8,854 nucleotides of DNA, taken from a virus. Taxonomy: Duplodnaviria > Heunggongvirae > Uroviricota > Caudoviricetes. Numbering within the stretch: the stretch's first letter is position 1; each line of letters begins with the position of its first letter. The stretch is taken from positions 1 through 8,854 of the IMG/VR virus record IMGVR_UViG_2778261069_000005. One strand, given 5' to 3'. The translations under genes and the position numbers were made by a program. The notes below the pieces were generated by a model, which saw only the letters and a program-made list of their open reading frames with translations, made no database searches and was not told the origin of the DNA. Positions 6,410-8,854 of this stretch are shown in pieces.

Positions 6410-6588
6410 AGCATCCTCACGATAATATCCGGGTAGGCGCGATAACTTTCGTCTACTCCGTTACAAAGCGAGGCTGGGTATTTCCCGGCCTTTCTGTTAT
6501 CCGAAATCCACTGAAAGCACAGCGGCTGGCTGAAGAGATAAATAATAAACGAGGGACTGTATGCACAAAGCATCTCCTGTTGAATTAA
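6406..6588 (+). CDS. Lambda orf60a-like small protein (60 aa from ATG 6406)
   Basis: An ATGA overlap with the exo stop gives a 60-aa product, the same length and arrangement as lambda orf60a as I recall the lambda map. The ORF track starts it at an upstream ATG at 6400. Confidence 0.55.
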
Positions 6589-6752
6589 GAACGAGTATCG
6601 GGATGGCACATAGCCTCGCTCAAATTGGAGTCAGGTTTGTGCCAATACCAGTAGAAACAGACGAAGAATTTCATACGTTAGCCACATCCCTTTCACAAAA
6701 GCTGGAAATGATGGCGGCGAAAGCAGAAGCAAACGAGAGAGACCCGGCATGA
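6561..6752 (+). CDS. Lambda orf63-like small protein
   Basis: 63 aa, overlapping the previous gene by 28 nt, the same length and overlap as lambda orf63 as I recall. Confidence 0.55.
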   Translation: MHKASPVELRTSIGMAHSLAQIGVRFVPIPVETDEEFHTLATSLSQKLEMMAAKAEANERDPA

Positions 6753-6832
6753 CAACAACAGAATGCATTTTTCTGGCAGCAGGCTTCATATTCTGTGTGC
6801 TTATGCTTGCCGACATGGGACTTGTTCAATGA
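6749..6832 (+). CDS. Candidate 27-aa hydrophobic peptide (MTTTECIFLAAGFIFCVLMLADMGLVQ)
   Basis: ATGA start/stop overlaps at both ends (with orf63 upstream and the 71-aa ORF downstream). Single predicted transmembrane segment. No other support. Confidence 0.3.
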   Translation: MTTTECIFLAAGFIFCVLMLADMGLVQ

Positions 6833-7044
6833 CACCTCAGCAGGAAAACGCCCTTCGCAGCATTGCCCGTCAGGCTAATTCTGAAATCAAAAAAGCCAGA
6901 CAGCAGTTTCCGGATAAAAACGTCGATGACATTTGCCGTAGCGTACTGAAGAAGCACCGCGAAACGGTAACGCTGATGGGATTCACACCGACTCATTTAA
7001 GTCTGGCGATCGGCATGTTAAACGGCGTCTTTAAGGAGCGATGA
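6829..7044 (+). CDS. Hypothetical protein, 71 aa (alternative start at 6763 gives 93 aa)
   Basis: ORF in the early-left accessory region, start coupled to the preceding small ORF by ATGA overlap. No recognisable motif. Confidence 0.5.
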   Translation: MTPQQENALRSIARQANSEIKKARQQFPDKNVDDICRSVLKKHRETVTLMGFTPTHLSLAIGMLNGVFKER

Positions 7045-7066
7045 ACATGAAAAGCAAAATCATCAG

Positions 7067-7088
7067 GGAGCTACAGGCTCCTTTTTTA
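7067..7088 (+). terminator. Intrinsic terminator
   Basis: GGAGC (7067-7071) pairs with GCTCC (7077-7081), loop TACAG, followed by TTTTTT. Confidence 0.6.
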
Positions 7089-7142
7089 TTGTTCGCATTC
7101 ACCCTCAAGCGTATTAACCAACAATTCAGGGATTAATGGAAG

Positions 7143-7364
7143 ATGGCAGACATCATTGATTCAGCATCAGAAATTGAAGAATTACAGCGCAACACAGCAA
7201 TAAAAATGCACCGCCTGAACCACCAGGCTATATCTGCCACTCATTGTTGTGAGTGTGGCGATCCGATAGATGAACTAAGACGTCTGGCCGTTCAGGGTTG
7301 TCGGACTTGTGCAAGTTGCCAGGAGGATCTGGAGCTTATCAGTAAACAGAGAGGTTCGAAGTGA
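7143..7364 (+). CDS. TraR/DksA-family C4 zinc-finger protein (lambda Orf73-like)
   Basis: 73 aa with two CxxC pairs (CCEC ... CRTC) spaced as in TraR/DksA C4-type zinc fingers. Location and size match the lambda orf73 TraR homologue. Confidence 0.8.
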   Translation: MADIIDSASEIEELQRNTAIKMHRLNHQAISATHCCECGDPIDELRRLAVQGCRTCASCQEDLELISKQRGSK

Positions 7365-7966
7365 GCGAAATTAACTCTCAGGCACTGCGTGAAGCGGCAG
7401 AGCAGGCAATGCATGACGACTGGGGATTTGATGCGGACCTTTTCCATGAGCTGGTAACACCATCGATTGTGCTGGCACTGCTGGATGAACGGGAAAGAAA
7501 CCAGCAATACATCAAACGCCGCGACCAGGAGAACGAGGAAATTGCGCTAACGGTAGGGAAGCTGCGTGTTGAGCTTGAGGAAGCAAAATCAAAACTCAAC
7601 GAGCAGCGTGAGTATTACGAAGGTGTTATCTCGGATGGGAGTAAACGTATTGCTGAACTGGAGAAAAGCGAAGAGCAACTCATTAACGAGCGTGACCATG
7701 CTGAGTCTGCTTTAGCTGATATGTACTTCGCAACAACCGGGGATAGGCCTGAGTGGAGTAACTGTTTCAGTTTTTCAGATGCTGTCGATGCCGTAGTTGA
7801 CAGAATTGCTGATTTAGAAGCCAAACAGCCATCGCCAGTAGTACCGGAAGAAAAACCAATGCCTAACCCTCTTAGCATGTACACAGTTGATGCTGTTGCA
7901 GCTATTGCAGAGGTGAGAGGCTGGAACGCCTGCCGTGCAGCCATGCTTAAGGGAGATAAATCATGA
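7361..7966 (+). CDS. ea22: Ea22-like protein with a central coiled-coil region, GTG start
   Basis: 201 aa. N-terminal part (MSEINSQALREAAEQAMHDDWGFDADLFHELV...) resembles lambda Ea22 as I recall it; the C-terminal part appears different. GTGA overlap with the upstream stop and Shine-Dalgarno GAGAGG upstream. Confidence 0.65.
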   Translation: MSEINSQALREAAEQAMHDDWGFDADLFHELVTPSIVLALLDERERNQQYIKRRDQENEEIALTVGKLRVELEEAKSKLNEQREYYEGVISDGSKRIAELEKSEEQLINERDHAESALADMYFATTGDRPEWSNCFSFSDAVDAVVDRIADLEAKQPSPVVPEEKPMPNPLSMYTVDAVAAIAEVRGWNACRAAMLKGDKS

Positions 7967-8313
7967 TTAATCGAACCAAACTGGAGCACATCCTCGAGTA
8001 TGCCAGGCAGCAGAGGCGCTTTGGCCAGCTTTGTAAAATTCTGCCAGGAGATATGGTTGAAATCGTGGAGATTGCCATGCGTAAGACTGGCAACTCTCCG
8101 GTAAGTCCGGGTGGTTGGATAAGCTGTAGTGAGCGAATGCCCGCTCAAGATGATTGGATTTTAATTTATTCAAAGCACGGTGAGTATATGGCAGGACAGG
8201 TACAAGAGGAATACGTGGAGTTGAGCGACGGCACTTTATCGTGGTTAGGGAACGCCTTGTACTGGATGCTGCTACCAGAACCGCCGCAGGGAGTGAATGA
8301 TGAATTGGCCTGA
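7963..8313 (+). CDS. Hypothetical phage protein, 116 aa (possibly DUF551-like)
   Basis: ATGA overlap with the ea22-like stop and Shine-Dalgarno GGGAG upstream. C-terminal WMLLPEPP-type motif is reminiscent of a prophage DUF family; that assignment is from memory only. Confidence 0.6.
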   Translation: MINRTKLEHILEYARQQRRFGQLCKILPGDMVEIVEIAMRKTGNSPVSPGGWISCSERMPAQDDWILIYSKHGEYMAGQVQEEYVELSDGTLSWLGNALYWMLLPEPPQGVNDELA

Positions 8314-8383
8314 AGCCTTCACCGCTGTAGGAGTTGCAATCGCGGTGGCATTTATTCTGTATTCGCTTTTCCGCTGGGGATAA
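8297..8383 (+). CDS. Candidate 28-aa hydrophobic peptide (MMNWPEAFTAVGVAIAVAFILYSLFRWG)
   Basis: Small ORF overlapping the 3-prime end of the previous gene and ending 5 nt before the next start. Single predicted transmembrane segment. Confidence 0.3.
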   Translation: MMNWPEAFTAVGVAIAVAFILYSLFRWG

Positions 8384-8387
8384 AGGA

Positions 8388-8630
8388 ATGTTCGCTCTGA
8401 TTCAACGTGGTCAGATATACACCGATAGCGCCGGCTACCCGATAAAAATTCTTCGCTGCATAAACAACACTGTGTTGTACAGAAGAATGGATGGGCGAAC
8501 ACAGTCGGTAAAAATAAACGATTTTAATGAACTGTTTGAACGGATCGATCACAAGGAATACCGACAAATTCTGGCTGAAACAGAGCAGGAGAACCATCTG
8601 AAAAAATTACGCGCCATGCAAAGGAGATAA
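8388..8630 (+). CDS. Hypothetical protein, 80 aa (the ORF track uses a TTG start at 8334 for 98 aa)
   Basis: ATG at 8388 with GGGGA 7 nt upstream. No recognisable motif. Occupies the ea8.5/xis-proximal position but does not resemble lambda Xis. Confidence 0.55.
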   Translation: MFALIQRGQIYTDSAGYPIKILRCINNTVLYRRMDGRTQSVKINDFNELFERIDHKEYRQILAETEQENHLKKLRAMQRR

Positions 8631-8668
8631 ACCGGTAAAGGTGTTCGCGATAAAGGTGAATATCGGCA

Positions 8669-8730
8669 ATGAATAACAATCCTCGCACTCGCGGGGATTT
8701 CTTTTATCTGAACTCGCTACGGCGGGTTTT
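8669..8730 (+). pseudogene. Possible 5-prime gene fragment (MNNNPRTRGDFFYLNSLRRVF...) truncated by the IS insertion at 8731
   Basis: ATG at 8669 with AAGGTG upstream. The reading frame runs directly into the IS terminus at 8731, and the continuation is IS sequence. Confidence 0.3.
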
Positions 8731-8854
8731 TGAACCGCCCCGGGTTTCCTGGAGAGTGTTTTATCTGTGAACTCAGGCTGCCAGATCATCGTTTCCGATG
8801 GAAGCATAATAAGCTTTTTCTGCTTCTGCCGGAGGAGTATGGCCCAGCCTTTCC
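8731..8854 (-). mobile_element. Right end of a second IS3-family copy in inverted orientation (partial): transposase C-terminal codons on the minus strand 8773-8853, terminus at 8731
   Basis: Exact reverse complement of positions 4-127. Minus strand encodes the same ...LERLGHTPPAEAEKAYYASIGNDDLAA-stop tail, and the element ends TGAACCGCCCC at 8731. Confidence 0.75.

What the first reader, a model, noticed from the sequence alone, without database searches (positions are those of the whole stretch)
7143..7364. TraR-like zinc-finger protein encoded next to the recombination genes
TraR/DksA-family proteins bind the RNA polymerase secondary channel and reprogram host transcription. A 73-aa C4 zinc-finger protein of this type lies in the early-left operon, coupled by a GTGA overlap to the ea22-like gene, and could influence host rRNA and stress promoters during induction.
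Basis: established knowledge. Interest (0 to 1): 0.35.

Follow-up and report, generated by a model that had tools for sequence, protein, structure and literature searches.

The report
Phage lambda orf73 (TraR homologue)
The 73-codon gene is a natural allele of bacteriophage lambda orf73, a small zinc-finger protein already shown by experiment to bind the host RNA polymerase and shut down ribosome-gene promoters, so the finding is correct but ordinary.

Summary
The ORF is real: 7143..7364 (+), 73 aa, with a GTGA stop/start overlap onto an Ea22-family gene. It is 70/73 identical to lambda Orf73. It passes the Pfam threshold for the DksA/TraR C4 zinc finger. A profile of phage homologues matches F-plasmid TraR over its full length (E=3e-15). 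All residues known to matter in TraR and lambda Orf73 are present: D3-x-x-D6-x-A8, C35-x2-C38-x17-C56-x2-C59, R46/R47 and E64. The three differences from lambda (H23, L45, A49) are common natural polymorphisms.

The gene lies on the + strand downstream of an N antiterminator, cIII, kil, gam, bet, exo, orf60a, orf63 and orf61, the lambda pL gene order. Exo ends 734 nt upstream, so orf73 is not directly adjacent to the recombination genes.

Gopalkrishnan et al. 2022 (PMC9239242) showed that lambda Orf73 binds RNAP at the DksA/TraR site. It inhibits rrnB P1 (IC50 about 50 nM) and rpsT P2, slows host growth and raises phage yield 3-4 fold. It activated the three promoters tested weakly if at all, so the "stress promoter" part is not established.

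RefSeq already names this gene a TraR/DksA family transcriptional regulator, and it occurs in 3316 of 5426 complete E. coli genomes. Verdict: confirmed, interpretation supported, already known, low interest.

The parts
7143..7364 (+). orf73 coding sequence (73 codons plus TGA), a TraR-family small RNAP-binding protein
   Evidence: ORF. Pfam PF01258 E=1.1e-8, above the gathering score. PHROG 54 E=1.9e-25. 70/73 identical to lambda Orf73 at J02459 30395-30613. A near-identical gene (I11T) is annotated 'TraR/DksA family transcriptional regulator' in RefSeq.
7149..7166 (+). codons D3-I-I-D6-S-A8, the DxxDxA motif at the start of the N-terminal helix
   Evidence: D3, D6 and A8 are invariant with TraR in the alignment. 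D6 and A8 are invariant in 9 diverse homologues. D3N, D6N and D3A/D6A substitutions cripple lambda Orf73 (PMC9239242).
7245..7319 (+). C4 zinc-finger region: C35 (7245-7247), C38 (7254-7256), C56 (7308-7310), C59 (7317-7319). Extra cysteines at C36 (7248-7250) and C53 (7299-7301). R46/R47 at 7278-7283.
   Evidence: C35, C38, C56, C59, R46 and R47 are invariant in alignment A4. They align to TraR C37, C40, C58, C61, R48 and R49. The two extra cysteines sit at the TraR 38 and 55 positions, as described for lambda Orf73.
7128..7132 (+). likely ribosome-binding site AGGGA, 10 nt before the ATG of orf73
   Evidence: Read from the sequence. Unchanged in all 82 fetched close relatives. The function is inferred.
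7361..7966 (+). Ea22-family gene (201 aa). Its GTG start overlaps the last base of K73 and the TG of the orf73 stop (GTGA, 7361-7364). A likely Shine-Dalgarno GAGAGG at 7349-7354 lies inside orf73.
   Evidence: Pfam Ead_Ea22 E=3.7e-29. Lambda ea22 is annotated with the same overlapping start. The N-terminus MSEINSQALREAAE is kept in frame across mosaic Ea22 variants that lack the downstream ATG (window 7409) that PGAP chose.
7065..7089 (+). terminator-like hairpin AGGGAGCUACAGGCUCCUU followed by UUUUUUAUU, 54 nt upstream of the orf73 start
   Evidence: Terminator scan. The hairpin forms in the minimum-free-energy fold. It is identical in lambda and present in all close relatives. Whether it terminates transcription was not tested.
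7041..7136 (+). 31-codon ORF (ATGA overlap with the orf61 stop) that spans the hairpin and ends 6 nt before the orf73 ATG
   Evidence: ORF. It stays open in 83 of the 84 sequences compared (82 relatives and the window). It has no family match. Ribosome profiling of lambda reported a 31-aa peptide in this gene block (PMC8614690). That this is the same ORF is inferred.
2877..3149 (+). N antiterminator gene at the head of the same-strand operon (context)
   Evidence: Pfam N_peptide PF25694 E=3.4e-32. A candidate pL lies at 2658-2686.

Best explanation
This is the orf73 gene of a lambdoid prophage of E. coli, a TraR-family protein.

Expression (inferred from the gene order and from lambda): after repressor cleavage, the gene is transcribed from pL as part of the N-antiterminated early-left operon.

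Mechanism (shown for lambda Orf73, inferred for this allele):
- The 73-aa protein folds around one zinc ion held by C35, C38, C56 and C59.
- It binds the secondary channel of host RNA polymerase, at the same site as DksA and TraR.
- Its N-terminal helix carries D3/D6/A8 toward the active site.
- Without ppGpp it destabilises open complexes at rRNA and ribosomal-protein promoters. Host ribosome synthesis and growth slow, and phage yield rises a few fold.

Its stop codon overlaps the GTG start of ea22, so the two genes are probably translationally coupled (inferred).
For: Sequence tests done here:
- 73-aa ORF at the stated coordinates.
- Pfam zf-dskA_traR above its cutoff.
- Single-sequence match to TraR chains 5w1s_M and 6n57_M over residues 1-64.
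- A profile of 8 phage homologues, built without TraR, hits TraR first at E=3e-15 over 1-71 of 73 positions. YbiI follows at 2.4e-13 and DksA at 0.008.
- D6, A8, C35, C38, I42, R46, R47, G52, C56, C59, Q60 and E64 are invariant across 9 homologues including TraR.
- 70/73 identity to lambda Orf73.
- H23, L45 and A49 segregate freely among natural alleles. Ten IMG/VR contigs carry the identical protein.
- Synonymous changes outnumber non-synonymous ones 16 to 8.

Context: N, cIII with its Rfam thermoregulator, kil, gam, bet, exo, orf60a, orf63 and orf61 all lie upstream on the same strand.

Literature on lambda Orf73 (PMC9239242):
- It competes with DksA for RNAP.
- IC50 is about 50 nM at rrnB P1, and it inhibits rpsT P2.
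- D3N and D6N are defective.
- After pL induction from a defective prophage, precursor rRNA synthesis fell to 29% and rpsT mRNA to 45%.
- Phage yield is 3-4 fold higher than in the D3A/D6A or deletion mutants.
- It complements a dksA-null strain.
Against: - Nothing was measured for this allele. RNAP binding and zinc binding are inferred from 96% identity.
- The match to NCBIfam TIGR02419 (TraR family) is 55.4 bits, just under its curated cutoff of 59.7.
- The single-sequence AlphaFold model is poor (pLDDT 57.4). It gives only the helix-zinc knuckle-helix order, not a reliable fold.
- The physiological role is disputed. An earlier study reported that orf73 lowers phage yield and favours lysogeny (cited).
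- The prophage segment is bounded by insertion-sequence ends on both sides, so whether this copy is ever induced is unknown.
Confidence: 0.92

Rival explanations
1. The main role of Orf73 is not RNAP reprogramming for lytic yield. Instead it has a pro-lysogenic or host-replication-blocking function, possibly through another target. In this reading the effects on rRNA promoters are secondary.
For: Earlier genetic work cited in PMC8614690 and PMC9239242 found that orf73 deletion lowered survival and lysogenisation. That work also implicated orf73, ea22, ea8.5 and orf55 together in blocking host replication initiation. At high concentration lambda Orf73 inhibits dnaA P2 in vitro, with an IC50 of about 420 nM.
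Against: Direct RNAP binding and potent promoter inhibition are demonstrated. dnaA mRNA barely changed in vivo. These phenotypes can all follow from RNAP binding, so this concerns physiological outcome more than mechanism.
Confidence: 0.05
2. This is an intact but effectively silent passenger gene in a decaying, IS-bounded prophage. It is conserved only because the insertion events are recent, and it has no present role in this genome.
For: The same IS3-family end, in inverted orientation, bounds the 8.6-kb segment at 4-127 and 8731-8854. The left copy lies just beyond the cII stop, where the replication gene O follows in a related prophage. In relatives the neighbouring ORFs are frameshifted pseudogenes and ea22 is often truncated.
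Against: The S24-peptidase repressor, the candidate pL, N and every ORF between N and orf73 are intact. Lambda Orf73 expressed from a non-replicating defective prophage still represses rRNA synthesis and slows growth. The allele is identical to copies in many other genomes.
Confidence: 0.03

Closest known systems
Bacteriophage lambda Orf73 (J02459 30395-30613, complement; called Orf2310 in the ribosome-profiling study)
   Same: 73 aa with 70/73 identical residues. Same DxxDxA motif, same six cysteines and same R46/R47. Same flanking DNA, including the upstream hairpin and the GTGA junction with ea22. Same position in the exo-xis block of the pL operon.
   Different: R23H, R45L and V49A. All three are common natural variants, and L45 and A49 are closer to the family consensus. 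The upstream orf61 is full length here but frameshift-truncated in the lambda reference. The immunity region and the C-terminal half of Ea22 also differ.
F-plasmid TraR (PDB 5w1s_M, 6n57_M and others)
   Same: Same length (73 aa) and same architecture: N-terminal helix with D3/D6/A8, a C4 zinc knuckle, the RR pair and a C-terminal helix with a conserved Glu. The alignment is full length. Lambda Orf73 inhibits rrnB P1 with the same IC50 as TraR.
   Different: Only 32% identical, with two extra cysteines. Lambda Orf73 activated thrABC, argI and rpoH P3 weakly if at all, whereas TraR activates them. It is encoded by a phage early operon rather than a conjugative transfer operon.
DksA (E. coli, PDB 1tjl)
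   Same: Shares the C-terminal C4 zinc-finger region (Pfam PF01258) and the RNAP secondary-channel binding site. It also has an analogous pair of aspartates.
   Different: DksA is 151 aa, carries its aspartates at the tip of a coiled coil and needs ppGpp. The profile match is marginal (E=0.008) and covers only the C-terminal half.
E. coli YbiI (PDB 2kgo) and other phage TraR homologues (P2 Orf82-like, Vibrio and Pseudomonas phage proteins)
   Same: Zinc-finger core and RR pair. P2 Orf82 and the Vibrio phage homologues VP882 Orf61 and VHML Orf8 also bind RNAP and inhibit rrnB P1.
   Different: YbiI is longer (108 aa) and aligns only from about residue 29. The other phage homologues are 38-51% identical and sit in different gene contexts.

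Membership tests
TraR family (small DksA-like RNAP secondary-channel factors) | Size of about 70-75 aa, with a single N-terminal helix rather than the DksA coiled coil | tested here: met
   73 aa. It aligns end to end with the 73-aa TraR. The low-confidence model gives helices 7-31, 41-48 and 56-70.
TraR family (small DksA-like RNAP secondary-channel factors) | N-terminal DxxDxA motif | tested here: met
   D3-I-I-D6-S-A8, aligned with TraR D3, D6 and A8.
TraR family (small DksA-like RNAP secondary-channel factors) | C4 zinc finger CxxC-x17-CxxC | tested here: met
   C35, C38, C56 and C59 are invariant in 9 homologues. Pfam PF01258 scores 35.3 bits against a cutoff of 24.9.
TraR family (small DksA-like RNAP secondary-channel factors) | Arg pair equivalent to TraR R48/R49 (rim-helix and beta-prime Si3 contacts) and an acidic residue in the C-terminal helix | tested here: met
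   R46, R47 and E64 are invariant. Their roles are described in PMC9239242 and PMC8614690.
TraR family (small DksA-like RNAP secondary-channel factors) | Score above the curated cutoff of NCBIfam TIGR02419 (C4_traR_proteo) | tested here: not met
   55.4 bits against a cutoff of 59.7, E=6.8e-15, covering 64/64 profile positions. This is a near miss on a conservative subfamily threshold. PHROG 54 matches at E=1.9e-25.
TraR family (small DksA-like RNAP secondary-channel factors) | Binds RNAP at the DksA site and regulates initiation without ppGpp | not testable with these tools
   Shown for lambda Orf73, which is 96% identical (PMC9239242). Not measured for this allele.
TraR family (small DksA-like RNAP secondary-channel factors) | TraR-like three-dimensional fold | tested here: inconclusive
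   The single-sequence AlphaFold2 model has pLDDT 57.4 and pTM 0.30, too poor for a fold search. PMC8614690 reports an AlphaFold model of lambda Orf73 at pLDDT 93.
DksA proper | About 150 aa with an N-terminal region and a coiled coil, and ppGpp-dependent activity | tested here: not met
   The protein is only 73 aa. The profile matches only DksA residues 100-149, at E=0.008.
Lambda exo-xis block (orf60a-orf63-orf61-orf73-ea22) | Conserved gene order downstream of exo in the pL operon | tested here: met
   DUF1317 (orf60a), DUF1382 (orf63), PHROG 303 (orf61), orf73 and Ead_Ea22 lie in order on the + strand after exo. The block is described in PMC8614690.

The most novel reading that the evidence does not exclude
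This reading treats the gene as domesticated by the host. The prophage segment is bounded by IS3-family ends but keeps the repressor, pL, N and orf73. If it can no longer replicate or excise, SOS-induced Orf73 would no longer serve phage production. It would instead give the host a ppGpp-independent brake on ribosome synthesis during DNA damage. A related possibility is that translation of the 31-codon ORF across the hairpin at 7065-7089 sets how much transcription reaches orf73 and ea22. Neither idea is excluded by the evidence, and neither is supported beyond the anatomy.
Probability: 0.08. Interest if true: 0.4.

Novelty: already known. Interest (0 to 1): 0.08.

Why it matters
It matters little beyond correct annotation. 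Orf73 is a published example of a phage small protein that takes over host transcription by mimicking DksA plus ppGpp. The gene is present in about 61% of complete E. coli genomes, so SOS induction of lambdoid prophages commonly brings a TraR-like factor into play. This copy adds no new biology. It does show that the H23/L45/A49 allele is a frequent natural variant with every functional residue intact.

Tried and rejected
1. Single-sequence AlphaFold2 gave pLDDT 57.4. I did not run a fold search on it, because a poor model gives meaningless matches.
2. The verdict would not change, and a high-confidence model of lambda Orf73 is already published.
3. The Rfam gathering-threshold scan of the whole window found only the cIII thermoregulator at 4281-4339 and nothing near orf73.
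4. The antisense ORFs 7133..7240 and 7292..7507 have no Pfam match. No sigma-70-like promoter was found on either strand in 6300-8854. There is therefore no sign of an overlapping gene or a private promoter.
5. PADLOC found no defence-system match for orf73 or its neighbours.
6. A literature search for a named lambda terminator at the 7065 hairpin (terms tL2/tL3) returned nothing relevant.
7. YbiI was the best single-sequence PDB hit, but only over the zinc finger. The profile search put TraR first over the full length, so I rejected a YbiI-like assignment.

Full report
**Observation.** The ORF list gives an ATG-started ORF at exactly 7143..7364 on the + strand. It encodes 73 aa: MADIIDSASEIEELQRNTAIKMHRLNHQAISATHCCECGDPIDELRRLAVQGCRTCASCQEDLELISKQRGSK. 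In the sequence the last codon AAG (7359-7361) and the stop TGA (7362-7364) overlap a GTG at 7361-7363. That GTG opens a 201-aa ORF, which matches Pfam Ead_Ea22 at E=3.7e-29. The reported GTGA overlap is therefore real.

ORF length alone means little, since the window holds 92 ORFs of at least 30 aa. Homology and variation show that this one is a gene:
- Pfam PF01258 (zf-dskA_traR): 35.3 bits against a gathering score of 24.9, E=1.1e-8.
- PHROG 54 'DksA-like zinc-finger protein': E=1.9e-25 over residues 1-71.
- NCBIfam TIGR02419 (TraR family): E=6.8e-15 over the whole profile, although 55.4 bits is just under its curated cutoff of 59.7.
- Among 29 distinct natural DNA alleles from 82 related loci there are 16 synonymous and 8 non-synonymous codon variants, the pattern expected of a protein under purifying selection.

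**Identity.** A tblastn search of phage genomes finds the protein in 409 records. Lambda itself (J02459 30395-30613, complement) is 95.9% identical. The alignment shows three differences from lambda Orf73: H23 for R, L45 for R and A49 for V.
- All three positions are polymorphic in nature. Among the 80 IMG/VR loci, 10 carry exactly the window's protein. The commonest allele is R23/R45/A49.
- A closely related E. coli chromosome (NZ_CP148453.1) matches window 128-8854 at 99.5% identity over 93% of the window. It carries the same gene with one further change (I11T), annotated 'TraR/DksA family transcriptional regulator'.
- The 222-nt gene is found in 3316 of 5426 complete E. coli genomes, with up to six copies per genome, under the same annotation.

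**Family membership.** Against PDB sequences the single protein matches YbiI over the zinc finger only. It matches F-plasmid TraR (5w1s_M, 6n57_M) from residue 1 to 64.

I then built a profile from eight phage homologues. These were the window, lambda, an Stx1c phage, phage Eeyore, a Klebsiella phage, a P2-like Yersinia phage, a Vibrio phage and a Pseudomonas phage, at 38-96% identity, with TraR left out. This profile puts TraR first at E=3e-15 over positions 1-71 of 73. YbiI follows at 2.4e-13, and DksA is marginal at 0.008 over its C-terminal 50 residues.

In the nine-sequence alignment that includes TraR, the invariant residues are D6, A8, C35, C38, I42, R46, R47, G52, C56, C59, Q60 and E64. 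D3 is present in all but one sequence, which has E. These correspond to:
- the DxxDxA motif;
- the CxxC-x17-CxxC zinc finger (TraR C37, C40, C58, C61);
- the R48/R49 pair;
- the acidic residue of the C-terminal helix.

These are the hallmarks listed for TraR and lambda Orf73 in PMC9239242 and PMC8614690. The two additional cysteines, C36 and C53, sit at the TraR 38 and 55 positions, exactly as described for lambda Orf73. In my small sample C53 is also present in several other phage homologues, while C36 is confined to the lambda-like proteins.

A single-sequence AlphaFold2 model was poor (pLDDT 57.4). It gave only the expected helix, zinc knuckle, helix order, so I did not use it for fold searching. 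PMC8614690 reports an AlphaFold model of lambda Orf73 at pLDDT 93.

**Context.** The window is the immunity and early-left region of a lambdoid prophage. The genes are:
- cII (150..449, -) and a cro-position gene (588..821, -);
- an S24-peptidase repressor (935..1639, +);
- two small ORFs of unknown function;
- a candidate pL (2658-2686);
- the N antiterminator (2877..3149; PF25694 E=3.4e-32);
- cIII with its Rfam thermoregulator (4281-4339), then kil, gam, bet and exo;
- orf60a (DUF1317), orf63 (DUF1382) and orf61 (PHROG 303);
- orf73 and ea22, followed by a DUF551 gene and a DUF4222 gene.

Everything from N onward is on the + strand. This is the lambda pL gene order, so 'early-left operon' is right. 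'Next to the recombination genes' is loose, because exo ends 734 nt upstream.

Terminator-like hairpins on the + strand are more frequent than in shuffled sequence: 8 against 2.7 expected in 800-4600, and 6 against 2.6 in 6300-8854. This fits an operon that depends on N. One hairpin (7065-7083, followed by a T run to 7089) lies 54 nt before orf73. It is identical in lambda and kept in all close relatives. No sigma-70-like promoter was found near orf73. Expression from pL through antitermination is therefore the likely route, which is an inference. Lambda Orf73 is reported to be expressed from pL 5-20 min after induction.

**The ea22 junction.** PGAP starts the Ea22-like gene of the related chromosome at an ATG that corresponds to window 7409. 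Lambda's record starts ea22 at the overlapping GTG. The 30 nt before the GTG, including GAGAGG at 7349-7354, are identical in all 82 related loci. The N-terminus MSEINSQALREAAE is kept in frame in mosaic Ea22 variants that have no Met at the PGAP position. The GTG start, and thus probable translational coupling, is the better reading. In 18 of the 83 sequences compared (82 loci plus the window), ea22 is cut to five codons while the junction is retained.

**Mechanism.** This has been established for lambda Orf73 by Gopalkrishnan et al., mBio 2022 (PMC9239242):
- The purified protein competes with DksA for RNAP, with half-maximal competition in the 0.65-1 uM range reported for TraR, lambda Orf73 and two other homologues.
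- It inhibits rrnB P1 with an IC50 of about 50 nM, like TraR and without ppGpp. It also inhibits rpsT P2.
- The D3N and D6N variants are defective.
- After pL induction from a defective single-copy prophage, precursor rRNA synthesis fell to 29% and rpsT mRNA to 45% of the orf73-minus control.
- A wild-type lysogen gave 3-4 fold more phage than the D3A/D6A or deletion mutants.
- All tested homologues complemented a dksA-null strain.
- Lambda Orf73 did not affect the lambda lytic promoters tested. It activated thrABC, argI and rpoH P3 weakly if at all, and the authors tentatively link this to the two extra cysteines.

Because the window's protein keeps every residue tested or conserved, and differs only at naturally polymorphic positions, I take the same mechanism to hold (confidence 0.92).

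**Rivals.** Earlier genetic studies gave orf73 a pro-lysogenic role or a part in blocking host replication. These concern the physiological outcome and can follow from RNAP binding.

The copy could also be silent. The 8.6-kb segment is bounded by the same IS3-family end in inverted orientation (4-127 and 8731-8854, 124 nt, 100% complementary). The left end lies just beyond the cII stop, where gene O follows in the related chromosome. The repressor, N and all intervening ORFs are nevertheless intact. In addition, Orf73 made from a non-replicating prophage is active in lambda.

**Verdict.** The feature is already known and already annotated as such in public genomes, so interest is low.

Noticed in passing
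window 6889-6894 (inside the orf61-like ORF 6829..7044); L001 (lambda) about 2246-2252: The orf61 homologue has a run of six A here and reads on to 7044 (71 aa from the PGAP start; PHROG 303 E=4.7e-36). The lambda reference J02459 has seven A, which shifts the frame and ends Orf61 225 nt before orf73. Of 76 scorable sequences, 75 have A6 and only the lambda reference has A7. The laboratory lambda Orf61 therefore looks like a frameshift-truncated allele.
   Followed up: partly
window 7041-7136 and 7065-7089: A 31-codon ORF overlaps the orf61 stop (ATGA), runs across the terminator-like hairpin and stops 6 nt before the orf73 ATG. It stays open in 83 of the 84 sequences compared (82 relatives and the window). 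It is probably the 31-aa peptide that lambda ribosome profiling reported in this block. Translation through the hairpin might affect termination or orf73 translation; this is speculative.
   Followed up: partly
window 4-127 and 8731-8854: A perfect 124-nt inverted repeat lies at the two ends of the window. It is the same terminus of an IS3-family element (TGAACCGCCCCGGGTTTCC...), pointing outward on both sides. The left copy lies between the cII stop and the place where the replication gene O sits in a related prophage. The right copy lies after the DUF4222 gene, where xis and int follow in the relative. The cause could be two insertions, an IS-mediated inversion or an assembly boundary.
   Followed up: partly
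window 4281-4339: Rfam Lambda_thermo, the cIII thermoregulator RNA element, scores 88.5 bits (gathering score 50). It covers the start of the cIII ORF at 4294..4458.
   Followed up: no
window 7361-7966 and related loci L003-L082: The Ea22-family gene is highly mosaic. After a conserved N-terminus (MSEINSQALREAAE), at least eight different continuations occur among relatives that share a near-identical orf73. In 18 of the 83 sequences compared (82 loci plus the window) the gene is cut to five codons. PGAP's ATG start (window 7409) is probably 16 codons too short.
   Followed up: partly
window 6470-6492: A terminator-like hairpin lies inside orf60a, just downstream of exo. From memory of the lambda map, not verified here, this is about where tL3 lies. 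Overall the + strand carries two to three times more terminator-like hairpins than shuffled sequence, as expected for an N-dependent operon.
   Followed up: no
window 1908-2414 and 3208-3657: Two ORFs lie between the repressor gene and pL, in the rexAB position: 120 aa (PHROG 13858) and 42 aa (PHROG 12503). A 149-aa ORF lies after N (PHROG 3054). All are of unknown function, with no Pfam or PADLOC match. They are candidate morons or superinfection-exclusion genes by position only.
   Followed up: no
window 2643-2688: Two 21-nt direct repeats (TTTATCATTTTGCTATTGTCA and TTTATCATTTCGATAAAGTCA, 25 nt apart) overlap the candidate pL hexamers at 2658-2686. They are possibly oL operator sites for the non-lambda repressor.
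   Followed up: no
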